The position numbers were made by a program, and so were the translations under genes. Below the pieces are notes generated by a model. It searched no databases and was not told the DNA's origin. It worked only from the letters and a program-made list of their open reading frames with translations. Shown in pieces: positions 780 to 64,000 of a DNA stretch of 64,000 bases. Source of the stretch: the human T2T-CHM13v2.0 reference genome, Homo sapiens; the NCBI RefSeq assembly GCF_009914755.1, contig NC_060933.1. One strand, given 5' to 3'. Positions within the stretch are counted from its first letter, which is position 1. Every line of letters starts with the position of its first letter.

Positions 780-794
780 GGAATCTTCCGGAAT
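780..794 (+). promoter_or_regulatory. Perfect 3-unit heat-shock element match (nGAAnnTTCnnGAAn); first of ~16 copies in the left domain
   Basis: gGAAtcTTCcgGAAt. Other copies start near 4636, 7098, 8865, 9609, 11138, 12406, 14220, 15073 (AC spacer), 18183, 20586, 21963, 24497, 26210, 27034, 29171. The motif match is direct; HSF binding is inferred. Confidence 0.6.
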
Positions 795-3700
795 GGAATG
801 GAATGGAATGGAATGAAATGCAATGGACTCAACTCGATTGCAATGGAATGGAATAGAATGGAATAGAATGGATTGGAATGGAATTAACCCGAATAGAATG
901 GAATGGAATGGAATGGAAAGGAATGGAACGGAAAGGAATGGAATGGAATAGAATGGAATGGAATGGAATGGTATGGAATGGAATGGAATAGTACGGAATG
1001 GAATGGAATGGAATGAATTGTAATGGAATGGAACTGAATGGAATGGAATGGAATGGAATGGAATCAACGCTAGTGCAGGGGAATGTAATGGAAAGGAATG
1101 CAATGGAATGGAATCATCCGGAATGGAATGGAATGGAATGGAATGGAATGCAATGGAATGGATTCAACCCGAGTACAATGGAATGGAATGGAATGGAATG
1201 GAATGGAATGGAATGGAATGCAATGGAATGGAATGGAATGGAATTGAATGGATCGGAATGCCTTCAAACCGAATGGAATGGAAAGGAATGCAATCAACAC
1301 GAGTGGAATGGAATGGAATGGAAAGGAATGGAATGGAATGGAATGGTACGGAATAGAATGGAATGGAACGAAATGGAATGGAATGGAATGGAATAGAATG
1401 GAATCGTTCAGAGTGGAATAGGAGGGAACGTATTCGAGTGGAATGGAAAGGAATGGAATCAACCAGAGTGGAATGGAAGGGAATGGAATGGAATGGAAAC
1501 TAATAGAATGGAATCAACCCGAGTGGAATGGAATGGAAATGACTGGAATGGAATGGAATGGAATGGAATGGAATGGAATGGAATGGAATCAACTCGATTG
1601 TAATGGATTGGAATGGAATGGAATTGAATGCAATAGAATGGAATTAACCCGAATAAAACGGAATGGAATGGAATGGAACGGAATGGAGTGGAATGGAATG
1701 GAATCAACCCGAGTGCAGGGGAATGGAATGGAATGGAATGCAATGGAATGGAATCATCCGGAATGGAATGGAATGGAATGGAATGCAAAGCAATGGAATC
1801 AACTCGATTGCAATGGAATGGAATGGAATGGAAAGGAATACATTGGAATCAACCCGAGTGGAATGGAATGGAAAGGACTGGAATGGAGTGGAATGGAATG
1901 GAATGGAATGGAATGGAATCAACTCGATTGGAATGGAATGGAATGGAATGGAATGGAATGGAATGGAATGGAATGGAATTAACCCGAATAGAATGGAATG
2001 GAATTAAATGGAAAGGAACGGAATGGAATGGAATGGAATGGAATGGAATGGAATCAACCCGACAGAAGGGGAATGGAATGGAATGGAATGCAATGGAATG
2101 GAATCAACCCGAGTACAATGGAATGGAATGGAATGGAATGGAATGGAATGGAATGGAATGGAATTGAATGGATTGGAATGCCTTCAAACCGAATGGAATG
2201 GAAAGGAATGGAATCAACACGAGTGGAATGGAATGGAATGGAAAGGAATGGAATGGAATGGAATGGTACGGAATAGAATGGAATGGAACGAAATGGAATG
2301 GAATGGAATGGAATAGAATGGAATCGTTCAGAGTGGAATAGGAGGGAACGTATTCGAGTGGAATTGAAAGGAATCGAATCAACCAGAGTGGAATGGAAGG
2401 GAATGGAAAGGAATGGAAACTAATAGAATGGAATCAATCCGAGTGGAATGGAATGGAAATGACTGGAATGGAATGGAATGGAATGGAATGGAATGGAATG
2501 GAATGGAATGGAATCAACTCGATTGTAATGGATTGGAATGGAATGGAATTGAATGGAATGGAATGGAATTAACCCGAATAAAAAGGAATGGAATGGAATG
2601 GAACGGAATGGAGTGGAATGGAATGGAATCAACCCGAGTGCAGGGGAATGGAATGGAATGGAATGCAATGGAATGGAATCATCCGGAATGGAATGGAATG
2701 GAATGGAATGCAATCAACCTGATGCAATGGAATGGAGTGGAATGGAATGGAATGGAATGGAAACATCCCGAATGGAATGGAATGTAATGGAGTGTAAGGG
2801 AATTGAATAGAATCAATCCGAATGTAATGGAACGGAATGGAATGAAATGGAATGGAATGGAATGGAATGGAATCAACCCGAGTGCAATGGAATGGATTCG
2901 AATGGAATGGAATGGAATGGAATGGAATCAACTCGATTGGAATGGAATGGAATGGAATGGAATGGAATGGAATGGAATTAACCCGACTGCAGGGGAATGG
3001 AATGGAATGGAATGGAATGGAATGGAATCATCCGGAACGGAATGGACTGGAATGGAATGGAATCAACTCGATTGCAATGGAATGGAATGGAATGGAATTT
3101 AATCGAATGGAATGGAATGGAATTAACCGGAATAGAATGGAATGGAATGGAATGGAACGGAATGGAATGGAATGGAATGGAATGGAATGGAATGGAATGG
3201 AATCAACCCGAGTGCAGGGGAATGGAATGGAATGGAATGCAATGGAATGGAATCATCCGGAATGGAATGGAATGGAATGGAATGCAATCAACCTGATGCA
3301 ATGGAATGGAGTGGAATGGAATGGAATGGAATGGAAAAATCCCGAATGGAATGCAATGTAATGGAGTGTAAGGGAATTGAATAGAATCAATCCGAATGTA
3401 ATGGAATGGAATGGAATGAAATGGAATGGAATGGAATGGAATGGAATCAACCCGAGTGCAATGGAATGGATTCGAATGGAATGGAATGGAATGGAATGGA
3501 TTCAACAAGAATGGAATGGAAAGGAATGGAATCAATCCGAGTGTAATGGCATGGAATGGAACGGAATGGAATGGGATGGAATGGAATGGTATGGAATAGA
3601 ATGGAATAGAATGAAATGGAATGGAATGGAATGGAATGGAATGGAATGGAATGAACCCGTGTGCAATGGAATGGAATGGAATGGAATGGAATGCATTCAA

Positions 3701-6700
3701 CTCGAATGGAATCAACTCGATTGCAATGGAATGGAATGGAATTGAAAGGAATAGAATGGAATCAACACGAGTGGAATGGAATGGAAAGGACTGGAATGGA
3801 GTGGAATGGAATGGAATGGAATTAACACGAATAGAATGAAATGGAACGGAATGGAATGGAATGAAATGGAATGCAATGGAAAGGAATCATCCCGAATGGA
3901 ATGGAATGGAATGGAATGGAATGGAATGGAACAACCCGAATGGAATCGAATGTAATGGAGAGTACGGGAGTTGAATAGAATCAATCCGAATGTAATGGAA
4001 TGGAATGGAACGGAATGGAATTGAATGGAATGGAATGGAATGCAATGGAATGGAATCAACCTGAGTGTAATGGAATGGAGAGGAATGGAATGGAATGGAA
4101 TGGAAACTACCCGAATGGAATGGAATGTAATGGAGTGTAAGGGAATTGAATAGAATCAATCCGAATGGAATGGAGTGGAATGGAACGGAATGGAATGGAA
4201 TGGAATGGAATGGAATGCAATGGAATGGAATCACCCCGAGTGCAATCGAATGGAATCGAATGGAATGGAATGCAATGGAATGGATTCAACTTGAATGGAA
4301 TGGAAAGAATGGAATCAACACGAGTGGAATGGCATGGATTGGAATGGAATGGAATGGAATCAACCCGAGTACAGGGGAATGGAATGGAATGGAATGCAAT
4401 GGAATGGAATCATCCGTAATGGAATGGAAAGGAATGGAATGGAATGGAATGGAATCAACTCGATTGCAATCGAATGGAATGGAATGGAATTAACCCAAAT
4501 AGAATGGAATGGAATGGAATGGAACGGAACGGAATGGAATCGAATGGAATGGAATGGAACGGAACGGAACGGAATGGAATGGAATGGAATGGAATGGAAT
4601 CAACGCGAGTGCAGGGGAATGGAATGCAATGGAATGGAATCTTCCGGAATGGAATGGAATGGAATGGAATGGAAAGAAATGCAATGGATTCAACTCGATT
4701 GCAATGGAATGGAATAGAATGGAATGGAATGGAATGGAATGGAATTAACCCGAATAGAATGGAATGGAATGCAATGGAACGGAATGGAACGGAATGGAAT
4801 GGAAGGGAATGGAATGGAATGGTATGGAATGGAATGGAATGGTACGGAATAGAATGGAATGGAACGAATTGTAATGGAATGGAATTGAATGGAATGGAAT
4901 GGAATCAACGCGAGTGCAGGGGAATGTAATGGAACGAAATGCAATGGAATGGAATCATCCGGAATGGAATGGAATGGAATGGAATGGAATGGAATGGAAT
5001 CAACCCGAGTGCAATGGAATGGAGTGGAATGGAATGGAATGGAATGGAACAACAAGAATGGAATGGAATGTAATGGATAGTAAGGGAGTTGAATAGAATC
5101 AATCTGAATGTAATGGAATGCAACGGAATGGAATGGAATGGAATGGAATGGAATGCAATGGAATGGAATCAACCCGAGTACAATGGAATGGAATGGAATG
5201 GAATGGAATGGAATGGAATGGAATGGAATGGAATGGAATCAATCCGACTGCAGGGGAATGGAATGGAATGGAATGGAATGGAATGGAATGGAATCATCCG
5301 GAACGGAATGGACTGGAATGGAATGGAATCAACTCGATTGCAATGGAATGGAATGGAATGGAATTTAATCGAATGGAATGGAATGGAATTAACCGGAATA
5401 GAATGGAATGGAATGGAATGGAACGGAATGGAATGGAATGGAATGGAATCAACCCGAGTGCAGGGGAATGGAATGGAATGGAATGCAATGGAATGGAATC
5501 ATCCGGAATGGAATGGAATGGAATGGAATGCAATCAACCTGATGCAATGGAATGGAGTGGAATGGAATGGAATGGAATGGAAACATCCCGAATGGAATGG
5601 AATGTAATGGAGTGTAAGGGAATTGAATAGAATCAATCCGAATGTAATGGAATGGAATGGAATGAAAAGGAATGGAATGGAATGGAATGGAATCAACCCG
5701 AGTGCAATGGAATGGATTCGAATGGAATGGAATGGAATGGAATGGAATCAACTCGATTGGAATGGAATGGAATGGAATGGAATGGAATGGAATGGAATTA
5801 ACCCGAATAGAATGGAATGGAATGGAATTGAACGGAATGGAATGGAATGGAATGGAATGGAATGGAATGGAATGGAATCAACCCGACTGCAGGGGAATGG
5901 AATGGAATGGAATGGAATGGAATCATCCGGAACGGAATGGACTGGAAAGGAATGGAATCAAATCGATTGCAATGGAATGGAATGGAATGGAATTTAATCG
6001 AATGGAATGGAATGGAATTAACCGGAATAGAATGGAATGGAATGGAATGGAACGGAATGGAATGGAATGGAATGGAATGGAATGGAATGGAATGGAATCA
6101 TCCCGAGTGCAGGGGAATGGAATGGAATGGAATGCAATGGAATGGAATCATCCGGAATGGAATGGAATGGAATGGAATGCAATCAACCTGATGCAATGGA
6201 ATGGAGTGGAATGGAATGGAATGGAATGGAATGGAAACATCCCGAATGGAATGGAATGTAATGGAGTGTAAGGGAATTGAATAGAATCAATCCGAATGTA
6301 ATGGAATGGAATGGAATGAAATGGAATGGAATGGAATGGAATGGAATCAACCCGAGTGCAATGGAATGGATTCGAATGGAAAGGAATGGAATGGAATGGA
6401 TTCAACAAGAATGGAATGGAAGGGAATGGAATCAACCCGAGTGTAATGGCATGGAATGGAACGGAATGGAATGGAATGTAATGGAATGGTATGGAATAGA
6501 ATGGAATAGAATGAAATGGAATGGAATGGAATGGAATGGAATGGAATGGAATGGAATGGAATGAACCCGTGTGCAATGGAATGGAATGGAATGGAATGGA
6601 ATGGATTCAACTCGAATGGAATCAACTCGATTGCAATGGAATGGAATGGAATTGAAAGGAATAGAATGGAATCAACACGAGTGGAATGGAATGGAAAGGA

Positions 6701-7795
6701 CTGGAATGGAGTGGAATGGAATGGAATGGAATTAACACGAATAGAATGAAATGGAACGGAATGGAATGGAATGTAATGGAATGCAATGGAAAGGAATCAT
6801 CCGGAATGGAATTGAATGGAATGGAATGGAATGGAATGGAATGGAATCAACTCGATTTCAATGGAATGGAATGGAATAGAATGGAATGGAATTAACACGA
6901 ATAGAATGGAATGGAATGGAATTGAATGGAACAGAAAGGAATGGAATGGAATGGAATGGAATCAACCCAAGTGCAGGGGAATGGAAAAGAATGGAATTCA
7001 ATGGAATGGAATCATCCGGAATGGAATGGAATAGAATGGAATGGAATGGAATCAACGCGAGTGCAGGGGAATGGAATGGAATGGAATGCAATGGAATGGA
7101 ATCTTCCGGAATGGAATGGAATGGAATGGAATGGAATGAAATGCAATGGATTCAACTCGATTGCAATGGAATGGAATAGAATGGAATGGAATGGAATGGA
7201 ATGGAATTAATTCGAATAGAATGGAATGGAATGGAATGGAACGGAATGGAACGGAATGGAATGGAATGGAATGGAATGGAATGGTATGGAATGGAATGGA
7301 ATGGTACGGAATAGAATGGAATGGAACGAATTGTAATGGAATGGAATTGAATGGAATGGAATGGAATGGAATGGAATGGAATGGAATCAACGCGAGTGCA
7401 GGGGAATGTAATGGAACGGAAGGCAATGGAATGGAATCATCCAGAACGGAATGGAATGGAATGGAATGGAATGGAATCAACCCGAGTGCAATGGAATGGT
7501 GTGGAATGGAATGGAATGGAATGGAACAACCCGAATGGAATGGAATGTAATGGAGAGTAAGGGAGTTGAATAGAATCAATCCGAATGTAATGGAATGGAA
7601 AGCAACGGAATGGAATGGAACGGAATGGAATGGAATGGAATGGAATGCAATGGAATTGAATCAACCCGAGTACAATGGAATGGAATGGAACGGAATGGAA
7701 TGGAATGGAATGGAATGGAATGAAATGATACGGAATAGAATGGAATGGAACGAAATGAATGGAATGGAATGGAATGGAATGGAATGGAATGGAAT

Positions 7796-7837
7796 GGAAT
7801 CGTTCCGAGTGGAATAGGAGGGAATGTATTCGAGTGG
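7796..7837 (+). repeat. Recurrent module GGAATCGTTCCGAGTGGAATAGGAGGGAATGTATTCGAGTGG (representative copy)
   Basis: Copies near 1400, 2320, 7796, 10358, 12691, 15757, 18632, 22228, 25182, 27798; reverse near 29820, 31000, 38556, 44950, 49685, 54283, 55533, 57136, 57965, 59632, 61006, 62732, 63386. In G-strand orientation they are followed by CAACCAGAGT...GGAAACTAATAG. Confidence 0.9.
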
Positions 7838-10800
7838 AATGGAAAGGAATGGAATCAGCCAGAGTGGAATGGAAGGGAATGGAATGGAATGGAAACTAAT
7901 AGAATGGAATCAACCCGAGAGGAATGGAATGGAAAGGACTGGAATGGAATGGAGTGGAATGGAATCAACTCGATTGTAATGGAATGGAATGGAATGGAAT
8001 GGAATGGAATGGAATGGAATTAACCTGAATACAATGCAATGGAATGGAATGGAACGGAATGGAGTGGAATGGAATGGAATCTACCCGAGTGCAGGGGAAT
8101 GGAATGGAATGGAATGCAATGGAATGGAATCATCCGGAATGGAATGGAATGGAATGGAATGCAAAGCAATGGAATCAACTCGATTGCAATGGAATGGAAT
8201 GGAATGGAAAGGAATACATTGGGATCAACCCGAGTGGAATGGAATGGAAAGGACTGGAATGGAGTGGAATGCAATGGAATGGAATGGAATGGAATCAACT
8301 CGATTGGAATAGAATGGAATGGAATGGAATGGAATGGAATTAACCCGAATAGAATGGAATGGAATGGAATGGAACGGAATGGAATGGAATGGAATGGATT
8401 GGAATGGAATGGAATGGAAACAACCCGACTGCAGGGGAATGGAGTGGAATGGAATGCAATGGAATGGATTCAACTTGAATGGAATGGAAAGAATGGAATC
8501 AACACGAGTGGAATGGCAGGAATTGGAATGGAATGGAATGGAATCAACCCGAGTACAGGGCAATGGAATGGAATGGAATGCAATGGAATGGAATCATCCG
8601 TAATGGAATGGAAAGGAATGGAATGGAATGGAATGGAATGGAATGGAATGGAATCAACTCGATTGCAATCGAATGGAATGGAATGGAATTAACCCGAATA
8701 GAATGGAATGGAATGGAATGGAACGGAACGGAACGGAACGGAACGGAATGGAATGGAATGGAATGGAATGGAACGGAAAGGAATGGAATGGAATGGAATG
8801 GAAAGGAATAGAATGGAATCAACGCGAGTGCAGGGGAAAGGAATGGAATGGAATGCAATGGAATGGAATCTTCCGGAATGGAATGGAATGGAATGGAATG
8901 GAATAAACCCGAGTGCAATGGAATGGAGTGGAATGGAATGGAATGGAATGGAACAACCCGAATGGAATGGAATGTAATGGAGAGTAAGGGAGTTGAATAG
9001 AATCAATCCGAATGTAATGGAATGGAATGGAACGGAATGGAATTGAATGGAATGGAATGGAATGCAATGCAATGGAATCAACCCGAGTGCAATGGAATGG
9101 AGAGGAATGGAATGGAATGGAGTGGAAACTACCCGAATGGAATGAAATGCAATGGAATGGAATCAACCCGAGTGCAATGGAATGGAGAGAAATGGAATGG
9201 AATGGAGTGGAAACTACCCGAATGGAATGGAATCTAATGGAGTGTAAGGGAATTGAATAGAATCAATCCGAATGTAATGGAAAGGAATGGAACGGAATGG
9301 AATGGAATGGAATGGAATGGAATGGAATGGAATGGAAAGGAATGCAAAGGAATGGAATCAACCCGAGTGCAATCGAATGGAATCGAATGGAATGAAATGC
9401 AATGGAATGGAATCAACTCGATTGCAATCGAATGGAATGGAATGGAATTAACCCGAATAGAATGGAATGGAATGGAATGGAAAGGAACGGAATGGAATGG
9501 AATGGAATGGAATGGAATGGAATGGAACGGAACGGAATGGAATGGAATGGAATGGAATGGAATCAACGCGAGTGCAGGGGAATGGAATGGAATGGAATGC
9601 AATGGAATGGAATCTTCCGGAATGGAATGGAATGGAATGGAATGGAATGAAATGCAATGGATTCAACCCGATTGCAATGGAATGGAATAGAATGGAATGG
9701 AATGGAACGGAATGGAATGAACCCGAATAGAATGGAATGGAATGTAATGGAACGGAATGGAACGGAATGGAATGGAATGGAATGGAATGCAATGGTATGG
9801 AATGGAATGGAATGGTACGGAATAGAATGGAATGTAACGAATTGTAATGGAATGGAATTGAATGGAATGGAATGGAATCAACGCGAATGCAGGGGAATGT
9901 AATGGAACGGAATGCAATGGAATGGAATCATCCGGAATGGAATGGAATGGAATGGAATGGAATGGAATGGAATGGAATGGAATCAACCCGAGTGCAATGG
10001 AATGGAGTGGAATGGAATGGAATGGAATGGAACAACCCGAATGGAATGGAATGTAATGGAATGTAAGGGAGTTGAATAGAATCAATCCGAATGTAATGGA
10101 ATGGAATGCAACGGAATGGAATGGAATGGAATGCAATGGAATGCAATCAACACGAGTACAATGTAATGTAATGGAATGGAATGGAATGGAATGGAATGGA
10201 ATGGAATGGAATGGAATGCCTTCAAACCGAATGGAATGGAAAGGAATGGAATCAACACGAGTGGAATGGAATGGAATGGAATGGAATGGAATGGAATGGA
10301 ATGATACGGAATAGAATGGAATGGAACGAAATGGAATGGAATGGAATGGAATGGAATGGAATCGTTCCGAGTGGAATAGGAGGGAATGTATTCGAGTGGA
10401 ATGGAAAGGAATGGAATCAACCAGAGTGGAATGGAAGGGAATGGAATGGAATGGAAACTAATAGAATGGAATCAACCCGATTGGAATGCAATGGAAAGGA
10501 CTGGAATGGAATGGAATGGAATGGAATCAACTCCATTGTAATGGAATGGAATGGAATGGAATGGAATGGAATGGAATGGAATTAACCCGAATACAATGGA
10601 ATGGAATGGAAAGGAAGGGAATGGAGTGGAATGGAATGGAATCAACCCGAGTGCAGGGGAATGGAATGGAATGGAATGCAATGGAATGGAATCATCCAGA
10701 ATGGAATGGAATGGAATGGAATGCAAAGCAATGGAATCAACTCGATTGCAATGGAATGGAAGGGAATGGAAAGGAATACATTGGAATCAACCCGAGTGGA

Positions 10801-13800
10801 ATGGAATGGATAGGACTAGAATGGAGTGGAATGGAATGGAATGGAATGGAAAGGAATGCAATGGAATGGAATCAACCCGAGTGCAATCGAATGGAATCGA
10901 ATGGAATGAAATGCAATGGAATGGAATCAACTCGATTGCAATCGAATGGAATGGAATGGAATTAACCCGAATAGAATGGAATGGAATGGAATGGAACGGA
11001 ACGGAATGGAATGGAATGGAATGGAATGGAATGGAACGGAAAGGAACGGAATGGAATGGAATGGAATGGAATGGAATGGAATGGAATGGAATCAACGCGA
11101 GTGCAGGGGAATGGAATGGAATGGAATGCAATGGAATGGAATCTTCCGGAATGGAATGGAATGGAATGGAATGGAATGAAATGCAATGGATTCAACTCGA
11201 TTGCAATGGAATGGAATAGAATGGAATGGAATGGAATGGAATGGAATTAACCCGAATAGAATGGAATGGAATGGAACGGAATGGAACGGAATGGAACGGA
11301 ATGGAATGGAATGGAATGGAATGGAATGGAATGGAATGGAATGGTATGGAATGGAATAGAATGGTACGGAATAGAATGGAATGGAACGAATTGTAATGGA
11401 ATGGAATTGAATGGAATGGAATGGAATGGAATGGAATCAACGCGAGTGCAGGGGAATGTAATGGAACGGAGTGCAATGGAATGGAATCATCCGGAATGGA
11501 ATGGAATGGAATGGAATGGAATGGAATGGAATGGATTGCAAAGGAATGGAATCAACCCGAGTGGAATGGCATGGAATGGAATGCAATGGAATGGAATGGA
11601 ATGGAATCAACTCGAGTGGAAAGGAATGGAATGGAATGGAAAGGAATGGAATGAAGTCAACTCGAGTGGAATGGAATGGAATGGAATGGATTGGAATGGA
11701 TTGCAATGGAATATAATGGAATGGAATGGAATGGAATCAATCATTCCGAGTGGAATGGAAGGGAATGTAATGGAGTGGAAAGAAGGGAATGGAATCAACC
11801 CGAGTGGAATGCAAGGCAATGGAATGGATTGGAAAGGAATGGAATGGAATCAACTCGATTGCAATGGAATGGAATGGAATGGAATGGAATGGAATGGAAT
11901 GGAATGGAATTAACCGGAATAGAATGGAATGGAATGGAATGGAACGGAATGGAATGGAATGGAAGGGAATGGAATCAACACGAGTGCAGGGGAGTGGAAT
12001 GGAATGGAATGCAATGGAATGGAATCATCCGGAATGGAATGGAATGGAATGGAATCAACTCCATTGCAATGGAATGGAATGGAATGGAATGGAATAGAAT
12101 GGAATGGAATTAACCCGAATAGAATGGAATGCAATAGAATGGAATGCAACGGAACCGAATGGAGTGAAATGGAATGGAATGGAATCAACCCGAGTACAGG
12201 GGAATGGAATGGAATGGAATGCAATGGAATGGAGTCATCCGTAATGGAATGGAAAGGAATGGAATGGAATGGAATGGAATGGAACGGAACGGAATGGAAT
12301 GGAACGGAATGGAATGGAATGGAGCGGAACGGAATGGAATGGAATGGAATGGAATGGAATCAACGCGAGTGCAGGGGAATGGAATGGAATGGAATGCAAT
12401 CGAATGGAATCTTCCGGAATGGAATGCAATGGAACGGAATGGAATGAAAGGCAATGGATTCAACTCGATTGCAATGGAATGGAATAGAATGGAATGGAAT
12501 GGAATGGAATGGAATGGAATTGAATGGAATGGAATACTTTCAAACCGAATGGAATGGAAAGGAATGGAATCAACACGAGTGGAAAGGAATGGAATGGAAA
12601 GGAATGGAATGGAATGGAATGGTACGGAATAGAATGGAATGGAACGAACTGGAATGGAATGGAATGGAATGGAATGGAATGGAATGGAATGGAATCGTGC
12701 CGAGTGGAATAGGATGGAATGTATTCGAGTGGAATGGAAAGGAATGGAATCAACCAGAGTGGAATGGAAGGGAATGGAATGGAATGGAATCTAATAGAAT
12801 GGAATCAACCCGAGTGGAATGGAATGGAAAGGACTGGAATGGAATGGAATGGAATGGAATGGAATGGAATCAACTCGATTGTAATGGAATGGAATGGAAC
12901 GGAATGGAATGGAATGGAATTAACCCGAATACAATGGAATGGAATGGAATGGAACGGAATGGAGTGGAATGGAATGGAATCAACCCGAGTGCAGGGGAAT
13001 GGAATGGAATGGAATGCAATGGAATGGAATCATCCGGAATGGAATAGAATGGAATGGAATGCAAAGCAATGGAATCAACTCGATTGCAATGGAATGGAAT
13101 GGAATGGAAAGGAATAGAATGGAATCAACCCGAGTGTAATGGAATGGAAAGGACTGGAATGGAGTGGAATGGAATGGAATGGAAAGGAATGGAATCAACT
13201 CGATTGTAATGGAATGGAATGGAATGGAATGGAATTAACCGGAATAGAATGGAATGGAATGGAATGGAAAGGAACGGAATGGAATGGAATGGAATGGAAT
13301 GGAATGGAATCAACCCGACTGCAGGGGAATGGAATGGAATGGAATGGAATGGAATGGAATGGAATCATCCGGAACGGAATGGAATGGAATGGAATGGAAT
13401 CAACTCGATTGCAATGGAATGCAATGGAATGGAATGGAATCGAATGGAATGGAGTGGAATTAACAGGAATAGAATGGAATGGAATGGAATTGAACGGAAT
13501 GAAATGGAAGGGAATGGAATGGAATGGAATGGAATCAACCCGAGTGCAGGGGAATGGAATGGAGTGGAATGCAATGGAATGGAATCAACCCGAGTGCAAT
13601 GGAATGGAGAGGAATGGAATGGAATGGAATGGAAACTACCCGAATGGAATGGAATGTAATGGAGTGTAAGGGAATTGAATAGAATCAATCCGAATGTAAT
13701 GGAATGGAATATAACGGAATGGAATGGAATGGAGTGGAATGGAATGGAATGGAATGGAATGCAATGGAATGGAATCAACCCGAGTGCAATCGAATGGAAT

Positions 13801-16800
13801 CGAATGGAATGGAATGCAATGGAATGGATTCAACTTGAATGGAATGGAAAGAATGGAATCAACACGAGTGGAATGGCATGGATTGGAATGGAATGGAATG
13901 GAATCAACCCGAGTACAGGGGAATGGAATGGAATGGAATGCAATGGAATGGAATCATCCGTAATGGAATGGAAAGGAATGGAATGGAATGGAATGGAATG
14001 GAATGGAATGGAATGGAATCAACTCGATTGCAATCGAATGGAATGGAATGGAATTAACCCGAATAGAATGGAATGGAATGGAATGGAACGGAACGGAATG
14101 GAATGGAATGGAATGCCATGGAATGGAACGGAAAGGAAGGGAATGGAATGGAATAGAATGGAATGGAATGGAATCAACGCGAGTGCAGGGGAATGGAATG
14201 GAATGGAATGCAATGGAATGGAATCTTCCGGAATGGAATGGAATGGAATGGAATGGAATGGAATGGAATGGAATCAACCCTAGTGCAATGGAATGGATTG
14301 TAATGGAATGGAATGGAATGGAACAACCCGAATGGAATGGAATGTAATGGAGAGTAAGGGAGTTGAATAGAATCAATCCGAATGTAATGGAATGGAATGG
14401 AACGGAATGGAATTGAAAGGAATGGAATGGAATGCAATGGAATGGAATCAACCCGAGTGCAATGGAATGGAGAGGAATGGAATGGAATGGAATGGAAACT
14501 ACCCGAATGGAATGGAATGTAATGGAGTGTAAGGGAATTGAATAGAATCAATCCGAATGTAATGGAATGGAATGGAACGGAATGGAATGGAATGGAATGG
14601 AATGGAATGGAATGGAATGGAATGCAATGGAATGGAATCAACCCGAGTGCAATCGAATGGAATCGAATGGAATGGAATGCAATGGAATGGATTCAACTTG
14701 AATGGAATGGAAAGAATGGAATCAACACGAGTGGAATGGCATGGATTGGAATGCAATGGAATGGAATCAACCCGAGTACAGGGGAATGGAATGGAATGGA
14801 ATGCAATGGAATGGAATCATCCGTAATGGAATGGAAAGGAATGGAATTGAATGGAATGGAATGGAATGGAATGGAATGGAAAGGAATGGAGTCAACTCGA
14901 TTGCAATCGAATGGAATGGAATGGAATTAACCCGAATAGAATGGAATGGAATGGAATGGAACGGAACGGAATAGAATGGAATGGAATGGAACGGAACGGA
15001 ATGGAACGGAATGGAATGGAATGGAATCAACGCGAGTGCAGGGGAATGGAATGGAATGGAATGCAATGGAATGGAAACTTCCGGAATGGAATGGAATGGA
15101 ATGAAATGCAATGGATTCAACTCGATTGCAATGGAATGGAATAGAATGGAATGGAATGGAATGGAATGGAATGGAATTAATCCGAATAGAATGGAATGGA
15201 ATGGAATGGAACGGAATGGAACGGAATGGAATGGAATGGAATGGAATGGAATGGAATGGAATGGTATGGAATGGAATGGAATGGTACGGAATAGAATGGA
15301 ATGGAACGAAATGTAATGGAATGGAATTGAATGGAATGGAATGGAATGGAATGGAATCAACGCGAGTGCAGGGGAATGTTATGGAACGGAATGCAATGGA
15401 ATGGAATCATCCGGAATGGAATGGAATGGAATGGAATGGAATGGAATCAACACGAGTGCAATGGAATGGAGTGGAATGGAATGGAATGGAATGGAACAAC
15501 CCGAATGGAATGGAATGTAATGGAGAGTAAGGGAGTTGAATAGAATCAATCCGAATGTAATGGAATGGAATGCAACGGAATGGAATGTAATGGAATGGAA
15601 TGGAATGCAATGGAATGGAATCAACCCGAGTACAATGGAATGGAATGGAATGGAATGGAATGGAATGGAATGATACGGAATAGAATGGAATGGAACGAAA
15701 TGGAATGGAATGGAATGGAATGGAATGGAATGGAATGGAATGGAATGGAATGGAATGGAATCGTTCCGAGTGGAATAGGAGGGAATGTATTCGAGTGGAA
15801 TGGAAAGGAATGGAATCAACCAGAGTGGAATGGAAGGGAATGGAATGGAATGGAAACTAATAGAATGGAATCAACCCGAGTGGAATAGAATGGAAAGGAC
15901 TCGAATGGAATGGAATGGAATGGAATCAACTCGTTTGTAATGGAATGGAATGGAATGGAATGGAATGGAATGGAAGTAACCCGAATACAATGGAAGAGAA
16001 TGGAATGGAATGGAAACTAATAGAATGGAATCAACCCGAGTGGAATGGAATGGAAAGGACTGGAATGGAATGGAATGGAATGGAATCAACTCGATTGTAA
16101 TGGAATGGAATGGAATGGAATGGAATGGAATGGAATGGAATGGAAGTAACCCGAATACAATGGAATGGAATGGAATGGAATGGAATGGAGTGGAATGGAA
16201 TGGAATCAACCCGAGTGCAGGGGAATGGAATGGAATGGAATGCAATGGAATGGAAACATCCGGAATGGAATGGAATGGAATGGAATGCAAAACAATGGAA
16301 TCATCTCGATTACAATGGAATGGAATGGAATAGAATGGAATGGAATTAACACGAATAGAATGGAATGGAATGGAATTGAATGGAAAAGAAAGGAATGGAA
16401 TGGAATGGAATGGAATCAACCCAAGTGCAGGGGAATGGAATGGAATGGAATTCAATGGAATGGAATCATCCGGAATGGAATGGAATGTAATGGAATGGAA
16501 TGGAATGGAATGGAATGGAATCAACCCGAGTGCAATGGAATGGAGAGGAATGGAATGGAATGGAATGGAAACTACACGAATCGAATGGATTGTAATGGAG
16601 TGTAAGGGAATTGAATAGAATGAATCCGAATGGAATGGAATGGAAAGGAATGGAATGGAATGGAATGGAATGGAACGGAGCGGAACGGAACGGAACGGAA
16701 TGGAATGGAATGGAATGGAATGGAATGGAATGGAATGCAATGGAATCAACTGATTGCAATGGAATGGAATGGAATGGAATGGAATGGAATGGAATGGAAT

Positions 16801-28800: not shown

Positions 28801-29545
28801 TGGATTCAACTTGAATGGAATGGAAAGAATGGAATCAACACGAGTGGAATGGCATGGATTGGAATGGAATGGAATGGAATCAACCCGAGTACAGGGGAAT
28901 GGAATGGAATGGAATGCAATGGAATGGAATCATCCGTAATGGAAAGGAAAGAAATGGAATGGAATGGAATGGAATGGAATGGAATGGAATCAACTCGATT
29001 GCAATCGAATGGAATGGAATGGAATTAACCCGAATAGAATGGAATGGAATGGAATGGAACGGAACGGAACGGAATGGAATGGAATGGAATGGAATGGAAT
29101 GGAACGGAAAGGAATGGAATGGAATGGAATGGAATCAACGCGCGTGCAGGGGAATGGAATGTAATGGAATGGAATCTTCCGGAATGGAATGGAATGGAAT
29201 GGAATCAACCCGAGTGCAATGGAATGGAGTGGAATGGAATGGAATGGAATGGAACAACCTGAATGGAATCGAATGTAATGGAGAGTAAGGGAGTTGAATA
29301 GAATCAATCCGAATGTAATGGAATGGAATGGAACGGAATGGAATTGAATGGAATGGAATGGAATGCAATGGAATGGAATCAACCCGAGTGCAATGGAATG
29401 GAGAGGAGGGGAATGGAATGGAGTGGAAACTACCCGAATGGAATGGAATGTAATGGAGTGTAAGGGAATTGAATAGAATCAATCCGAATGTAATGGAATG
29501 GAATGGAACGGAATGGAATGGAATGGAATGGAATGGAAAGAAGGG

Positions 29546-29573
29546 AATGGAATCAACCCGAGTTGATTCCATT
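29546..29573. other. Intra-satellite inversion breakpoint; hairpin with 12-bp stem and 4-nt loop; CGAGT microhomology
   Basis: AATGGAATCAAC (29546-29557), CCGA, GTTGATTCCATT (29562-29573): the arms are exact reverse complements. CGAGT (29559-29563) is shared by the + module CAACCCGAGTG and the - module AATCGAGTTGATT. Confidence 0.95.
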
Positions 29574-34300: not shown

Positions 34301-34839
34301 CTTCCACTCGTGTTGATTCCATTCTTTCCATTCCATTCAAGTTGAATCCATTCCATTGCATTCCATTCAATTCGATTCCATTCGATTGCACTCGGGTTGA
34401 ATCCATTCCATTGCATTCCATTCCATCCCATTCCATTCCATTGCATTCCATTCCGTTCCATTCCATTCCATTACATTCGGATTGATTCTATTCAATTCCC
34501 TTACACTCCATTACATTCCATTCCATTCGGGTAGTTTCCATTCCATTCCATTCCATTCCTCTCCATTCCATTGCACTCGGGTTGATTCCATTCCATTGCA
34601 TTCCATTCCATTCCATTCAATTCCATTCCGTTCCATTCCATTCCATTCCATTCGGATTGATTCTATTCAACTCCCTTACTCTCCATTACATTCCATTCCA
34701 TTCGGGTTGTTCCATACCATTCCATTCCATTCCACTCCATTCCATTGCACTCGGGTTTATTCCATTCCATTCCATTCCATTCCATTCCATTCCATTCCGG
34801 AAGATTCCATTCCATTGCATTCCATTCCATTCCATTCCA

Positions 34840-37800: not shown

Positions 37801-37870
37801 CCATTCCATTCCATTGCATTCCATTCCGTTCCATTCCATTCCATTACATTCGGATTGATTCTATTCAATT
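34840..37870 (-). repeat. ~3-kb block duplicated at ~40150-43150 (offset ~5.3 kb)
   Basis: Shared rare markers: CATTACCTTCTATTCC (~34863/40171), GATTGATTATATTCC (~35086/40395), TTCTAATTGATTCTATTCATCTCCCTTAGTCTCC (~36486/41799), CTTTCTGTTCC (~37233/42535). Near-identical ORF translations at offsets 5302-5313. Confidence 0.88.
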
Positions 37871-37879
37871 CCCTTACAC

Positions 37880-54900: not shown

Positions 54901-57900
54901 TTCCGTTCCGGATGATTCCATTCCATTGCATTCCATTCCATTCCATTCCCCTGCAGTCGGGTTGATTCCTTTCCATTCCATTCCATTCCATTCCATTCTA
55001 TTCCATTCCGTTCCATTCCATTCCATTCCATTCTATTCGGGTTAATTCCATTGCATTCCATTCCATTCCATTCCAATCGAGTTACTTCCATTCCATTCCA
55101 TTCCATTCCACTCCATTCCAGTCCTTTCCATTCCATTCCACTCGGGTTGATTCCATTCTATTCCTTTCCATTCCATTCCATTGCAATCGAGTTGATTCCA
55201 TTGCATTGCATTCCATTCCATTCCATTCCATTCCGGATGATTCCATTCCATTGCATTCCATTCCATTCCATTCCCCTGCACTCGGGTTGATTCCATTCCA
55301 TTCCACTCCATTCCGTTCCATTCCATTCCATTCCATTGTATTCGGGTTAATTCCATTCCATTCCATTCCTTTCCATTCCATTACAATCGAGTTGATTCCA
55401 TTCCATTCCATTCCATTCCATTCCATTCCATTCCTTTCCATTCCATTCCACTCGGGTTGATTCCATTCTATTAGTTTCCATTCCATTCCATTCCCTTCCA
55501 TTCCACTCTGGTTGATTCCATTCCTTTCCATTCCACTCGTATGCATTCCGTCCTATTCCACTCGGAACAATTCCATTCCATTCCATTCCATTCCATTCCA
55601 TTCCATTCCATTCCATTCCACTCGTGTTGATTCCATTCCTTTCCATTCCATTCGGTTTGAAGCCATTCCATTCCATTCAATTCCATTCCATTCCATTCCG
55701 TTCCATTCCATTTCATTCCATTGTACTCGGGTTGATTCCATTCCATTGCATTCCATTCCATTCCATTCAATTCCATTCCGTTCCATTCCATTCCATTACA
55801 TTCGGATTGATTCTATTCAACTCCCTTACTCTCAATTACATTCCATTCCATTCGGATTGATTCTATTCAACTCTCTTACTCTCCATTACATTACATTCCA
55901 TTCGGGTTGTTCCATTCCATTCCATTCCATTCCACTCCATTCCATTGCACTCGGGTTGATTCCATTCCATTCCATTCCATTCCATTCCATTCCATTCCAT
56001 TCCATTCCGGATGATTCCATTCCATTGCATTCCGTTCCATTACATTCCCCTGCACTCGGGTTGATTCCATTCCATTCCATTCCATTCCATTCGTTTCCAT
56101 TCCATTCCAATTCTTTCCTTTCCATTCTATTCCGTACCATTCCATTCCATTCCATACAAATCCATTCCATTCCATTCCATTCCTTTCCGTTCCGTTCCGT
56201 TCCGTTCCGTTCCATTCCATTCCATTCCATTCTATTCGGGTTAATTCCATTTCATTCCATTCCATTCCATTCTATTGCATTCCATTGCAATCGAGTTGAA
56301 TCCATTGCATTCCATTCCATTCCATTCCATTCCATTCCGGAAGATTCCATTCCATTGCAATCTATTCCATTCCATTCCCCTGCACTCGCGTTGATTCCAT
56401 TCCATTTCATTCCATTCCATTCCATTACATTCGGATAGATTCTATTCAATTCCCTTATTCTCCATTACATTCCATTCCATTCGGGATGTTTCCATTCCAT
56501 TCCATTCCATTCCACTCCATTCCATTGCATCAGGTTGATTGCATTCCATTCCATTCCATTCCGTTCCGGATGATTCCATTCCATTGCATTCCATTCCATT
56601 CCATTCCCCTGCAGTCGGGTTGATTCCATTCCATTGCATTCCATTCCATTCCATTCCATTCCATTCTTTTCCATTCCATTCCATTCCATTCTATTCGGGT
56701 TAATTCCAATCCATTCCATTCCATTCCATTCCAATCGACTTGATTCCATTCCATTCCATTCCATTCCATTCCACTCTATTCCAGTCCTTTCCATTCCATT
56801 CCACTCGGGTTGATTCCATTCTATTCCTTTCCATTCCATTCCATTCCATTGCAATCGAGTTGATTCCATTTCTTTGTATTCCGTTCCATTCCATTCCATT
56901 CCATTATATTCGGGTTAATTCCATTGCATTCCATTCCATTCCATTCCATTCCATTCCATTCCATTCCATTCCATTCCATTCCATTACACTGGAGTTGATT
57001 CCATTCCATTCCATTCCATTCCATTCCATTCCAGTCCTTTCCATTCCATTCCACTCGGGTTGATTCCATTCTACTAGTTTCCATTCCATTCCATTCCCTT
57101 CCATTCCACTCTGGTTGATTCCATTCCTTTCCATTCCACTCGAATACATTCCCTCCTATTCCACTCGGAACGATTCCATTCCATTCCATTCCATTCCATT
57201 CCATTCCATTCCATTCCATTCCGTTCCGTTCCATTCCATTCCATTCGATTTAATTTCGTTCCATTCCATTCTATTCCGTACCATTCCATTCCAATCAATT
57301 CCATTCCATTCCATTCCATTCCATTTCGTTCCATTCCATTCTATTCCGTACCATTCCATTCCATTCCATTCCATTCCATTCCATTCCATTCCACTCCATT
57401 CCATTCCATTCCATTCCATTCCATTCCACTCGTGTTGATTCCATTCCTTTCCATTCCATTCAGTTTGAAAGCATTCCATTCCATTCCATTCCATTCCATT
57501 CTATTCCATTCTATTCCATTCCATTGTACTCGGGTTGATTCCATTCCATTGCATTCCATTCCATTCCATTCCATTCCATTCCATTCCATTCCGTTCCATT
57601 CCATTCCATTACATTCGGATTGATTCTTTTCAACTCCCTTACTCTCCATTACATTCCATTCCATTCGGGTTGTTCCATTCCATTCCATTCCATTCGACTC
57701 CATTCCATTGCACTCGGGTTGATTCCACTCCATTCCATTCCATTCCATTCCGGATGATTCCATTCCATTGCATTCCGTTCCATTCCATTCCCCTGCACTC
57801 GGGTTGATTCCATTCCATTCCATTCCATTCCATTCCATTCCATTCCATTCGTTTCCATTCCAGTCTTTTCCATTCCATTCCACTCGGGTTGATTCCATTC

Positions 57901-60900
57901 TATTAGTTTCCATTCCATTCCATTCCCTTCCATTCCACTCTGGTTGATTCCATTCCTTTCCATTCCACTCGAATACATTCCCTGCTATTCCACTCGGAAC
58001 GGTTCCATTCCATTCCATTCCATTCCATTCCATTCCATTTCGTTCCATTCCATTCTGTTCCGTATCATTCCATTCCATTCCATTCCATTCCATTCCATTC
58101 CATTCCATTCCACTCGTGTTGATTCCATTCCTTTCCATTCCATTCGGTTTGAAGGCATTCCATTCCATTCCATTCCATTCCTTTCCATTCCATTCCATTG
58201 TACTCGGGTTGATTCCATTCCATTGCATTCCATTCCATGCCATTCCATTCCATTCCATTCCATTCCATTCCGTTCCATTCCATTCCATTACATTCGGGTT
58301 GATTCTATTCAACTCCCTTACTCTCCATTACATTCCATTCCATTCGGGTTGTTCCATTCCATTCCATTCCATTCCACTCCATTCCATTGCACTCGGGTTG
58401 ATTCCATTCCATTCCATTCCATTCCATTCCATTCCGGATGATTCCATTCCATTGCATTCCGTTCCATTCCATTCCCCTGCACTCGCGTTGATTCCATTCC
58501 ATTCCATTCCATTCCATTCAATTCCATTCCATTACAATTCGTTCCATTCCATTCTATTCCGTACCATTCCATTCCATTCCATAACATTCCATTCCATTCC
58601 ATTCCATTCCATTCCATTCCATTCCGTTCCATTCCGTTCCATTCCTTTCCATTCCATTCTATTCGGGTTAATTCCATTCCATTCCATTCCATTCCATTCC
58701 ATTCCATTCCATTCCATTCCATTCTATTCCATTCCATTGCAATCGAGTTGAATCAATTGCATTTCATTCCATTCCATTCCATTCCATTCCATTCCGGAAG
58801 ATTCCATTCCATTGCATTCCATTCCATTCCATTCCCCTGCACTCGCGTTGATTCCATTCCATTCCATTCCATTCCATTCCATCCATTCCATTCCGTTTCG
58901 TTCCATTCCATTCCATTCCATTCCGTTCCGTTCCATTCCATTCCATTCCATTCTATTCGGGTTAATTCCATTCCATTCCATTCGATTGCAATCGAGTTGA
59001 TTCCATTCCATTCCACTCCATTCCATTCCATTCCATTCCATTCCTTTCCATTCCATTACGGATGATTCCATTCCATTGCATTCCATTCCATACCATTCCC
59101 CTGTACTCGGGTTGATTCCATTCCATTCCATTCCAATCCATGCCATTCCACTCGTGTTGATTCCATTCTTTCCATTCCATTCAAGTTGAATCCATTCCAT
59201 TGCATTCCATTCCATTCCATTCCCCTGCAGTCGGGTTGTTTCCATTCCATTCCATTCCATTCCATTCCGTTCCGTTCCATTCCATTCCATTCCATTACAT
59301 TCTATTCGGGTTAATTCCATTCCATTCCATTCCATTCCATTCCATTCCATTCCATTCCAATCGAGTTGATTCCATTCCATTCCATTCCATTCCATTCCAT
59401 TCCATTCCACTCCATTCCAGTCCTTTCCATTCCATTCCACTCGGGTTGATTCCAATGTATTCCATTCCATTCCATTCCATTCCATTCCATTACAATCGAG
59501 TTGATTCCATTCCATTCCATTCCATTCCAGTCCTTTCCATTCCATTCCTCTCGGGTTGATTCCATTCTATTAGTTTCCATTCCATTCCATTCCCTTCCAT
59601 TCCACTCTGGTTGATTCCATTCCTTTCCATTCCACTCGAATACATTCCCTCCTATTCCACTCGGAACGATTCCATTCCATTCCATTCCATTCCATTCCAT
59701 TCCATTCCATTCCATTCCATTGTACTCGGGTTGATTCAATTCCATTGCATTCCATTCCATTCCATTCCATTCCATTCCATTCCGTTGCATTCCATTCCAT
59801 TACATTCGGATTGATTCTATTCAACTACCTTACTCTCCATTACATTCCATTCCATTCGGGTTGTTCCATTCCATTCCATTCCATTCCACTCCATTCCATT
59901 GCACTCGGGTTGATTCCATTCCATTCCATTCCATTCCATTCCATTCCATTCCATTCCGGATGATTCCATTCCATTGCATTCCGTTCCATTACATTCCCCT
60001 GCACTCGCGTTGATTCCATTCCATTCCATTCAATTCCATTCCATTACAATTCGTTCCATTCCATTCTATTCCGTACCATTCCATTCCATTCCATACCATT
60101 CCATTCCATTCCATTCCATTCCATTCCGTTCCATTCCGTTCCATTCCATTCCATTCCATTCTCTTCGAATTAATTCCATTCCATTCCATTCCATTCCATT
60201 CTATTCCATTCCATTGCAATCGAGTTGAATCCATTGCATTTCATTCCATTCCATTCCATTCCATTCCATTCCGGAAGATTCCATTCCATTGCATTCCATT
60301 CCATTCCATTCCCCTGCACTCGCGTTGATTCCATTCCATTCCATTCCATTCCATTCCATTCCATTCCGTTCCGTTCCGTTCCGTTCCATTCCATTCCATT
60401 CCATTCCGTTCCGTTCCGTTCCATTCCATTCCATTCCATTCTATTCCGGTTAATTCCATTCCATTCCATTCGATTGCAGTCGAGTTGATTCCATTCCATT
60501 CCATTCCATTCCATTCCATTCCATTCCATTCCATTCCAATCGAGTTGATTCCATTCCATTCCATTCCATTCCATTCCATTCGACTCCATTCCAGTCCTTT
60601 CCATTCCATTCCACTCGGGTTGATTCCAATTTATTCCTTTCCATTCCAGTCCATTCCATTGCAATCGAGTTGATTCCATTGCTTTGCATTCCATTCCATT
60701 CCATTCCATTCCGGATGAGTCCTTTCCATTGCATTGCATTCCATTCCATTCCCCTGCACTCGGGTTGATTCCATTCCATTCCACTCCATTCCGTTCCATT
60801 CCATTCCATTCCATTGTATTCGGGTTAATTCCATTCCATTCCATTCCATTCCATTCCATTCCATTACAATCGAGTTGATTCCATTCCATTCCATTCCATT

Positions 60901-63900
60901 CCAGTCCTTTCCATTCCATTCCACTCGGGTTGATTCCATTCTATTAGTTTCCATTCCATTCCATTCCCTTCCATTCCACTCTGGTTGATACCATTCCTTT
61001 CCATTCCACTCGAATACATTCCCTCGTATTCCACTCGGAACGATTCCATTCCATTCCATTCCATTCCATTCCATTCCATTCCATTCCATTTCGTTCCATT
61101 CCATTCTATTCCGTATCATTCCATTCCATTCCATTCGATTCCATTCCATTCCATTCCATTCCATTCCATTCCATTCCATTGTACTCAGGTTGATTCAATT
61201 CCATTGCATTCCATTCCATTCCATTCCATTCCATTCCATTCCGTTGCATTCCATTCCATTACATTCGGATTGATTCTATTCACCTCCCTTACTCTCCATT
61301 ACATTCCATTCCATTCGGGTTGTTCCATGCCATTCCATTCCATTCCACTCCATTCCATTGCACTCGGGTTGTTCCATTCCATTCCATTCCATTCCATTCC
61401 ATTCCATTCCGGATGATTCCATTCCATTGCATTCCGTTCCATTACATTCCCCTGCACTCGCTTTGATTCCATTCCATTCCATTCCATTCCATTCAATTCC
61501 ATTCCATTACAATTCGTTCCATTCTATTCTATTCCGTACCATTCCATTCCATTCCATGCCATTCCATTCCTTTCCATTCCATTCCATTCCGTTCCATTCC
61601 GTTCCATTCCATTCCATTCCATTCTATTCGGATTAATTCCATTCCATTCCATTCCATTCCATTCCATTCTATTCCATTCCATTGCAATCGAGTTGAATCC
61701 ATTGCATTTCATTCCATTCCATTCCATTCCATTCCATTCCGGAAGTTTCCATTCCATTGCATTCCATTCCATTCCATTCCCCTGCACTCGCGTTGATTCC
61801 ATTCCATTCCATTCCATTCCGTTCCGTTCCATTCCATTCCATTCCATTCCGTTCCGTTCCATTCCATTCCATTCCATTCTATTCGGGTTAATTCCATTCC
61901 ATTCCGTTCGATTGCAATCGAGTTGATTCCATTCCATTCCATTCCATTCCATTCCATTCCATTCCATTCCATTCCTTTCCATTCCATTACGGATGATTCC
62001 ATTCCATTGCATTCCATTCCATTCCATTCCCCTGTACTCGGGTTTATTCCATTCCATTCCATTCCAATCCATGCCATTCCACTCGTGTTGATTCCATTCT
62101 TTCCATTCCATTCAAGTTGAATCCATTCCATTGCATTCCATTCAATTTGATTCCATTCGATTGCACTCGGGTTGATTCCATTCCATTGCATTCCATTCCA
62201 TTCCATTCCATTCCATTCCATTCCATTCCATTCCGTTCCATTCCATTCCATTACATTCGGATTGATTCTATTCAATTCCCTTACACTGCATTACATTCCA
62301 TTCCATTCGGGTAGTTTCCATTCCATTCCATTCCATTCCCCTCCATTCCATTGCACTCGGGTTGATTCCATTCCATTGCATTCCATTCCATTCCATTCAA
62401 TTCCATTCCGTTCCATTCAATTCCATTACATTCGGATTGATTCTATTCAACTCCCTTACTCTCCATTCCATTCCATTCCATTCGGGTTGTTCCATTCCAT
62501 TCCATTCCATTCCACTCCATTCCATTGCACTCGGGTTGATTCCATTCCATTCCATTCCATTCCATTCCATTCCATTCCATTCCATTCCATTACAATCGAG
62601 TTGATTCCTTTCCATTCCATTCCATTCCAGTCCTTTCCATTCCATTCCACTCGTGTTGATTCCATTCTATTAGTTTCCATTCCATTCCATTCCCTTCCAT
62701 TCCACTCTGGTTGATTCCATTCCTTTCCATTCCACTCGAATACATTCCCTCCTATTCCACTTGGAACGATTCCATTCCATTCCATTCCATTCCATTCCAT
62801 TCCATTCCATTCCATTTCGTTCCATTCCATTTTATTCCGTATGATTCCATTCCATTCCATTCCATTCAATTCCATTCCATTCCATTCCATTGTACTCGGG
62901 TTGATTCCATTCCATTCCATTCCATTCCATTCCATTCCATTCCATTCCATTCCGTTCCATTCCATTACATTCGGATTGATTCTTTTCAACTCCCTTACTC
63001 TCCATTACATTCCATTCCATTCGGATTGTTCCATTCCATTCCATTCCATTCCACTCCATTCCATTGCACTCGGGTTGATTCCATTCCATTCCATTGCATT
63101 CCATTCCGGATGATTCCATTCCATTGCATTCTGTTCCATTACATTCCCCTGCAATCGGGTTGATTCCATTCCATTCCATTCCATTCCATTCGATTCCATT
63201 CCATTCCCCTGAACTCGCGTTGATTCCATTCCATTCCATTCCATTCCATTCCATTCCATTCCATTCCATTCCTTTCCATTCCAGTCCTTTCCATTCCATT
63301 CCACTCGCGTTGATTCCATTCTATTAGTTTCCATTCCATTCCATTCCCTTCCATTCCACTCTGGTTGATTCCATTCCTTTCCATTCCACTCGAATACATT
63401 CCCTCCTGTTCCACTCGGAACGATTCCATTCCATTCCATTCCATTCCATTCCATTCCATTCCATTCCATTTCGTTCCATTCCATTCTATTCCGTATCATT
63501 CCATTCCATTCCTTTCCATTCCATTCCACTCGTGTTGATTTCATTCCTTTCCATTCCATTCGGTTTGAAGGCATTCCATTCCATTCCATTCCATTCGATT
63601 CCATTCCATTCCAGTCCATTCCATACCATTGTACTCGGGTTGATTCCATTCCATTGCATTCCATTCCATTCCATTCCATTCCATTCCGTTGCATTCCATT
63701 CCATTACATTCGGATTGATTCTATTCAACTCCCTTACTCTCCATTACATTCCATTCCATTCGGGTTGTTCCATTCCATTCCATTCCATTCCACTCCATTC
63801 CATTGCACTCGGATTCATTCCATTCCATTCCATTCCATTCCGGATGATTCCATTCCATTGCATTCCGTTCCATTACATTCCCCTGCACTCGGGTTGATTC

Positions 63901-64000
63901 CATTCCATTCCATTCCTTTCCATTCGATTCCATTCCATTCCAATTCTTTCCATTCCATTCTATTCCGTACCATTCCATTCCATTCCATACAATTCCATTC

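What the first reader, a model, noticed from the sequence alone, without database searches (positions are those of the whole stretch)
780..61750. About 40 perfect heat-shock elements hidden in one satellite module (GGAATCTTCCGGAAT)
Seen: plain GGAAT gives only direct nGAAn repeats, but the CTTCC pentamer variant supplies an inverted unit in exact register (gGAAt-cTTCc-gGAAt), the canonical HSF trimer site. The flanking pentamers keep GAA in 10-bp phase. By-eye counts are ~16 copies left and ~25 right, about one per 1.5 kb. The commoner sister module GGAATCATCCGGAAT differs by one base and breaks the TTC. Of the variants I noticed, three alter only spacer bases (15073 and 61736 AC/GT spacer; 43679 TTCCTGAAG) and one destroys a GAA (~17350, CTTCCGCAAT). 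Established: HSF1 binds SatIII, mainly at 9q12. Inference: these modules are the HSF1 nucleation or promoter sites, and CTTCC density may determine which HSat3 arrays form nuclear stress bodies.
Basis: partly seen in the sequence, partly recalled or inferred. Interest (0 to 1): 0.72.

Follow-up and report, generated by a model that had tools for sequence, protein, structure and literature searches.

The report
Heat-shock elements in chromosome 9 satellite
A one-letter variant of the chromosome 9 satellite repeat spells a perfect heat-shock element, found 12,700 times in the human genome; these are likely the docking sites that draw the stress factor HSF1 to this chromosome, which sharpens an idea already in print rather than overturning one.

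Summary
Observation confirmed. The window is chr9 human satellite 3 with 41 perfect GAAnnTTCnnGAA elements (16 +, 25 -): 38 exact GGAATCTTCCGGAAT and 3 spacer variants. The exact 15-mer occurs 12,700 times genome-wide, none listed on chr1-8, and chr9 density can account for all of them. It likely arose by one A>T change in the CATCC sister block, then amplified. The Yq12 array, the other primary HSF1 target, carries three unrelated perfect elements (14,092 copies); 46 kb from other satellite arrays held none. The four 15-mers make up 35% of all perfect three-unit elements. So these are likely HSF1's seed sites at 9q12 (0.7), but binding was not tested here. Corrections: the sister block is a one-mismatch element, not a dead one; upstream phase is broken (GCAAT in 37 of 41); no sign of selection; chr15 hybrids form stress bodies although chr15 samples lack perfect elements. 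The concept is published (Jolly 2002; Penin 2021; Franklin 2025, ChIP enrichment over motif-dense HSat3). The exact module, its count and the chr9/Y contrast were not found in my searches.

The parts
25..29553 (+). HSat3 (GGAAT)n array, left arm, G-rich strand on +
   Evidence: Tandem Repeats Finder, period 5, 5914 copies
29566..64000 (-). HSat3 array, right arm, G-rich strand on -
   Evidence: period 5, 6897 copies, consensus ATTCC
780..29185 (+). 16 perfect three-unit HSEs; 15-mers start at 780, 4636, 7098, 8865, 9609, 11138, 12406, 14220, 15073 (variant), 18183, 20586, 21963, 24497, 26210, 27034, 29171
31374..61750 (-). 25 perfect three-unit HSEs; 13-bp cores start (+ coordinates) at 31375, 32243, 33952, 34795, 35832, 36630, 37120, 38158, 38878, 41135, 41942, 42422, 43300, 43680 (variant), 44553, 45268, 46358, 49097, 50416, 52573, 52833, 56335, 58792, 60269, 61737 (variant)
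735..794 (+). One whole block as example: CAACG marker, CGAGT, G(C/T)AGG, four GGAAT, GCAAT, GGAAT, then the HSE (780-794)
   Evidence: block statistics
17350..17364 (+). Broken copy: third GAA changed, two-unit element left
1110..1124 (+). Example of the sister block with CATCC (56 exact copies in the window): one-mismatch HSE that keeps all three G
29546..29573 (.). Inversion junction: 12-bp perfect inverted arms around a 4-base loop; G-rich strands converge

Best explanation
The chr9 satellite 3 array carries a perfect three-unit heat-shock element about every 1.5-2 kb, likely made by one A>T change in a repeat block that was then amplified, and these elements are likely the high-affinity sites where heat-activated HSF1 trimers first dock on 9q12. 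Shown here: sequence, count, density along the array, linkage to one block lineage, absence from other sampled arrays except Yq12, which has three different perfect elements. Established in print: HSF1 trimers bind three alternating nGAAn; HSF1 binds 9q12 and Yq12 first; ChIP signal follows motif density. Inferred: trimers seeded at these sites spread onto one-mismatch sister blocks and the GGAAT lattice, condense, recruit acetyltransferases, Mediator and Pol II, and start SatIII RNA that builds the stress body. Perfect-element density likely sets which arrays are primary targets, while chromatin state and HSF1 level tune the choice. The elements are likely passengers of array expansion, not shown to be selected.
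For: 41 of 41 elements canonical, 40 with the CG pyrimidine-purine step that HSF1 prefers. 133 perfect elements in 20 x 10 kb spread over chr9:49.2-76.4 Mb, present in all 20. 12,700 exact copies, listings on both strands start on chr9; sampled density predicts 13,100-17,700 for 27.6 Mb, so chr9 can hold all. Yq12: 3 elements per 3.56-kb unit, 4,408 + 4,790 + 4,894 copies on Y. 0 perfect elements in 35 kb of other HSat3-like and 11 kb of HSat2-like samples against about 23 and 7 expected. GAATG-flanked elements: 69 of 24,393 lie on chr1-8; strand accounting leaves at most about 650 on the minus strand, where the 7.5-Mb chr15 array lies, against about 3,900 at chr9 density. HSF1 ChIP enrichment on HSat3 3.12 after heat shock, 1.09 without, over motif-dense sub-regions. 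No shift with satellite II in vitro.
Against: No binding data at single-module level were available. Hamster hybrids with chr15 formed SatIII RNA stress bodies as often as chr9 hybrids (about 90% of cells) although 0 perfect elements were seen in 12 kb of chr15. A matrix-based HSF1 score does not single out chr9: about 10 for chr9 B5, about 16 for Y A6, 18.6 for chr15 A5, up to 47 for small A1 arrays. HSF1 DNA-binding domains were crystallised on head-to-tail SatIII repeats (by citation). In HT1080 cells 9q12 is skipped in vivo in favour of Y. One-mismatch elements outnumber perfect ones 360 to 174 in 264 kb. No selection signal. SatIII can be induced by NFAT5 without HSF1.
Confidence: 0.7

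Rival explanations
1. HSF1 coats the array through many weak sites (GGAAT direct repeats, CATCC and CTACC one-mismatch blocks) plus condensation; array size matters and the perfect elements add little.
For: Co-crystal on head-to-tail SatIII repeats (cited); 360 one-mismatch elements in 264 kb; chr15 hybrids form bodies; the 158-bp chr9 probe bound HSF1 more weakly than a consensus HSE; matrix scores are high on arrays without perfect elements.
Against: The chr15 array is 7.5 Mb and GGAAT-rich yet HSF1 granules mapped to chr9 in all heat-shocked fibroblasts; ChIP follows motif density, unlike TEAD4; the two primary arrays are the two with perfect elements. Chr20 and chr17 samples are as GGAAT-rich as chr9 (102-106 per kb) and are not named as primary targets in the papers read.
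Confidence: 0.2
2. Chromatin state or a cofactor decides which array responds; the elements are neutral by-products of satellite turnover and mostly closed or methylated. An ETS-like site on the other strand may be what is read.
For: HT1080 skips 9q12 in vivo but binds it on spreads or with more HSF1; single origin plus amplification, no selection signal; 40 of 41 elements hold a CpG; CCGGAAG occurs 40 times (ETS label recalled).
Against: Purified HSF1 rebuilt granules on chr9 in chromosome spreads (legend); Yq12 repeats are required in hybrids; ETS motifs were not among those heavily enriched in HSat3, bar one. Neutral origin does not exclude binding.
Confidence: 0.1

Closest known systems
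Canonical heat-shock element (three alternating nGAAn; Feng et al. 2021, PMC8379338)
   Same: GAA-nn-TTC-nn-GAA with pyrimidine-purine step between TTC and GAA; one trimer site.
   Different: Only three units, no fourth inverted unit; embedded in heterochromatic satellite, no gene within 100 kb; about 12,700 copies of one sequence.
HSF1 motifs in HSat3 sub-regions (Franklin et al., bioRxiv 10.1101/2024.10.22.616524)
   Same: Same arrays, same factor; ChIP-seq enriched where motifs are dense.
   Different: Matrix scan; the text read does not name the module, its sister or its origin, and its scores do not separate chr9 and Y from chr15. Figure 2b and the supplementary PDF were not seen and may show the sequence.
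Perfect HSEs in the Yq12 3564-bp repeat (Penin et al. 2021, PMC7889540)
   Same: Perfect HSEs scattered in SatIII of a primary HSF1 target.
   Different: Other sequences; four reported per unit, three by the strict pattern here; none is the chr9 module.
HSF1 binding to the 9q12 probe pHuR98 (Jolly et al. 2002, PMC2173303); 'putative HSEs at 9q12, unpublished observation' (PMC9032817)
   Same: Direct HSF1 binding to chr9 SatIII, ascribed to HSE-like sites.
   Different: Sites only 'possible', number unknown; the figure with the probe sequence was not seen.

Membership tests
Canonical HSE | At least three contiguous alternating nGAAn units | tested here: met
   41 of 41; definition
Canonical HSE | Pyrimidine-purine step between TTC and GAA (preferred) | tested here: met
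   CG in 40 of 41; AG at 43679
Extended HSE for two trimers | Four to six alternating units | tested here: not met
   No TTCnnGAAnnTTC on the G-rich strand; units -2 and +2 are GGAAT; unit -3 is GCAAT in 37 of 41
Functional HSE | Bound by HSF1 after heat shock | not testable with these tools
   Only regional ChIP evidence in print
Functional HSE | Drives Pol II initiation nearby | not testable with these tools
   No start-site data
HSat3 (satellite III) | Diverged (GGAAT)n tandem array | tested here: met
   GGAAT is 7,244 of 12,819 pentamer tokens
HSat3B5 subfamily | The large chr9 pericentric array with many strand switches | tested here: met
   Position chr9:54.25 Mb inside the sampled array, strand switch at about 29560; label; subfamily k-mers not tested
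Selected cis-element | Core bases conserved beyond neutral neighbours | tested here: inconclusive
   Core changed in 6 of 138 versus 14 of 113 sister copies (p 0.033, copies not independent); distinct alleles p 0.72; flanking non-HSE GAA equally intact

The most novel reading that the evidence does not exclude
Chromosome 9 and Y satellites independently evolved perfect heat-shock elements from GGAAT and now hold over a third of all perfect three-unit elements in the genome. They act as a sequence-coded HSF1 sink whose capacity varies with array length between people, and methylation of the CpG inside the chr9 element (absent from two of the three Y elements) switches the stress body between 9q12 and Yq12.
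Probability: 0.25. Interest if true: 0.75.

Novelty: new member of a known kind. Interest (0 to 1): 0.48.

Why it matters
Why HSF1 picks 9q12 and Yq12 among many GGAAT arrays has been open since 2002; a 2022 review calls the number of sites unknown. A single named 15-mer with a one-base sister in the same array, plus a count per array, makes this testable in public raw reads without mapping, and gives a chr9-specific handle to block or mark the sites. It is a refinement of a published idea, not a new kind of element.

Tried and rejected
Selection on the HSE core: not shown (the anchor caught 138 T and 113 A blocks, a subset of the 181 and 509 near-matches; T>A reversion is invisible). 'Exact register' as evidence of design: rejected, pentamer shuffles give 23 of 41. 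Extended two-trimer element: rejected. A fixed higher-order period for the module: none; only local duplications. Junction as an HSE source: none there. Sampling outside the chr9 array was 78 kb in 22 loci placed from recalled coordinates or search hits; 7 of 22 missed satellite II/III (L022, L029, L030, L037-L040) and were dropped before the count; subfamily names of sampled loci are recalled or inferred. Large acrocentric arrays (chr13, 14, 21, 22) are thinly sampled, and exact copies on chr10-Y could not be listed, so 'all on chr9' is an inference. Literature searches for the module (40 of 149 hits listed, none on satellites by title) found no paper naming it. Denegri 2002, Eymery 2010, Neudegger 2016 and the Altemose 2022 review were not read, only seen cited.

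Full report
Setting. The window (chr9:54,250,001-54,314,000) is all human satellite 3: two period-5 arrays, 25-29553 with GGAAT on + and 29566-64000 with GGAAT on -. It lies in the 27.6-Mb chr9 array (size from PMC10505914, passages), which holds over 200 inversion breakpoints (bioRxiv 10.1101/2021.07.12.452052, passages).

Observation. The four named variants are exact and are the only near variants. Shuffled sequence gives about 3 or 0.5, but shuffling whole pentamers gives 23 on average: once a CTTCC pentamer exists, the lattice puts it in register. The phase claim is half right: downstream +3 is GGAAT in 38 of 41, upstream -3 is GCAAT in 37 of 41. The element is thus three units, with at most a gapped extension downstream.

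Origin. In the window plus 20 chr9 loci (264 kb), 513 anchored blocks sort by an upstream marker. CATCC occurs with marker C (99 with GGAAT after it, 130 with GTAAT), G (63) and A (12); CTTCC occurs with G (128, plus 6 variants), A (6), T (2) and C (2). A CATCC form is also seen in the chr5 array. I infer that CTTCC is derived: one A>T change in the G-marker lineage, then amplification. Selection is not shown: core bases changed in 6 of 138 CTTCC and 14 of 113 CATCC blocks (p 0.033 by copies, which are not independent; p 0.72 by distinct alleles), and non-HSE GAA at +2 and +3 are as intact (4 and 3 of 138) as the HSE ones (5 and 1).

Genome-wide. The exact 15-mer has 12,700 copies (6,460 +, 6,240 -; reversed control 3); listings for both strands begin on chr9, so none is listed on chr1-8. 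All 20 loci from 49.2 to 76.4 Mb hold perfect elements (133; 108 exact). Sampled density predicts 13,100-17,700 exact copies in 27.6 Mb, so chr9 can hold all; copies on chr10-Y could not be listed. The sister has 20,563 copies, one listed outside chr9 before the chr9 rows. Two Yq12 loci each hold three perfect elements of other sequences and no CTTCC module; their genome counts are 4,415, 4,836 and 4,895, with 7, 46 and 1 off Y. The four 15-mers make 26,846 of 76,189 perfect three-unit matches, 35%; the chr9 module alone 17%. Of 22 loci outside the chr9 array, 2 were Yq12, 10 HSat3-like (35 kb; chr15 x3, 20, 17, 5, 4, 14, 21, 9 small array), 3 HSat2-like (11 kb), and 7 missed and were dropped. 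The 46 kb held 0 perfect elements. A satellite-flanked pattern has 24,393 matches, only 69 on chr1-8, about 15 of them near pericentric satellites by position, 6 in the chr5 array. Subtracting chr9, Y and background leaves about 700 (-740 to 1,970) in all and about 20 (-690 to 650) on the minus strand, which is the G-rich strand of all three chr15 samples. This bound holds only for elements preceded by GAATG.

What is known. HSEs are three or more alternating nGAAn, G most conserved, with a preferred pyrimidine-purine step after TTC; HSF1 domains were also crystallised on head-to-tail SatIII repeats (PMC8379338, passages). HSF1 granules map to 9q11-12 and recombinant HSF1 shifts a chr9 probe, more weakly than a consensus HSE, and not satellite II (PMC2173303, passages; figure with the probe sequence not seen). 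Yq12 is a second primary target with four perfect HSEs per 3564-bp unit; HT1080 uses Y and skips chr9 unless HSF1 is overexpressed (PMC7889540, passages and Discussion; supplement not seen). A review says the number of sites is unknown and cites putative HSEs at 9q12 as unpublished (PMC9032817, passages). Franklin et al. found HSF1 motifs in sub-regions of HSat3 with heat-shock ChIP enrichment there (abstract, passages, section 5; supplement rows; Figure 2b and supplementary PDF not seen). Passages of PMC13634412, PMC13705371 and PMC3761090 do not name the module. Searches found no paper naming it; most subscription papers are outside the library.

Against the simple reading. Chr15 hybrids made G-rich RNA bodies as often as chr9 hybrids (PMC2241877, passages), and a review adds chr12. 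Franklin's matrix score is about 10 for chr9 B5 (read by eye from the row), about 16 for Y A6, 18.6 for chr15 A5. One-mismatch elements that keep all three G number 360 against 174 perfect in 264 kb, led by the sister (197), so the sister should bind less, not nothing. NFAT5 can drive SatIII without HSF1.

Mechanism. Most likely (0.7): activated HSF1 trimers dock first on the perfect elements, one trimer each, every 1.5-2 kb over 27 Mb; weaker neighbours and condensation enlarge the load; coactivators and Pol II follow; SatIII RNA builds the body. Sequence, count, lineage linkage and array contrast are shown; docking on this module, spreading and initiation are inferred. Perfect-element density likely separates primary from secondary targets but is not required for a body. 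The CpG in 40 of 41 window elements, against one of three Y elements, offers a methylation switch; this is speculation, and a search found nothing on it.

Verdict. Real, correctly described, a new instance of a known kind. The concept is published; the named module, its one-base origin, the chr9/Y convergence and the 35% share appear to be new detail that makes an old question testable in public reads. Interest 0.48.

Noticed in passing
window 29546-29573: Inversion junction with 12-bp perfect inverted arms and a 4-base loop, joined at a 5-bp microhomology in the near-palindromic CAAC..GTTG block. G-rich strands converge, so read-through RNA would fold back (z -10.3). One of over 200 known switches in this array.
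   Followed up: partly
L010 about 8315-8335 (chr9:61.508 Mb): A second strand switch of the same convergent polarity, joined in plain GGAAT sequence.
   Followed up: no
window 29566-64000: Recent local duplications with periods near 5.3 and 6.35 kb in the right arm; left arm has weaker periods (2.9, 9.55 kb).
   Followed up: no
L001; chr9:49.16-49.29 Mb: The start of the array is poor in the module: one copy at 49,162,019, next at 49,287,718; 0 exact in L001. A natural low-density control region, perhaps an older layer.
   Followed up: partly
chr5:49.72-49.91 Mb (near L033): Six perfect elements with CTTCC followed by CGAA or AGAA in the chr5 satellite 3 array: likely a separate, rare A>T origin.
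   Followed up: no
window and L001-L020: A second one-mismatch HSE-like block built on CTACC, 90 exact copies in 264 kb.
   Followed up: no
window, all CTTCC modules: The other strand reads CCGGAAG (40 copies; sister CCGGATG 69), an ETS-like core (label recalled), and each holds a CCGG methylation-sensitive restriction site; 124 CCGG in the window.
   Followed up: no
L021, L023 (chrY 28.0 and 45.0 Mb): Three unrelated perfect HSEs per 3.56-kb unit, 14,092 copies on Y; first listed copies at 27.905 Mb.
   Followed up: yes
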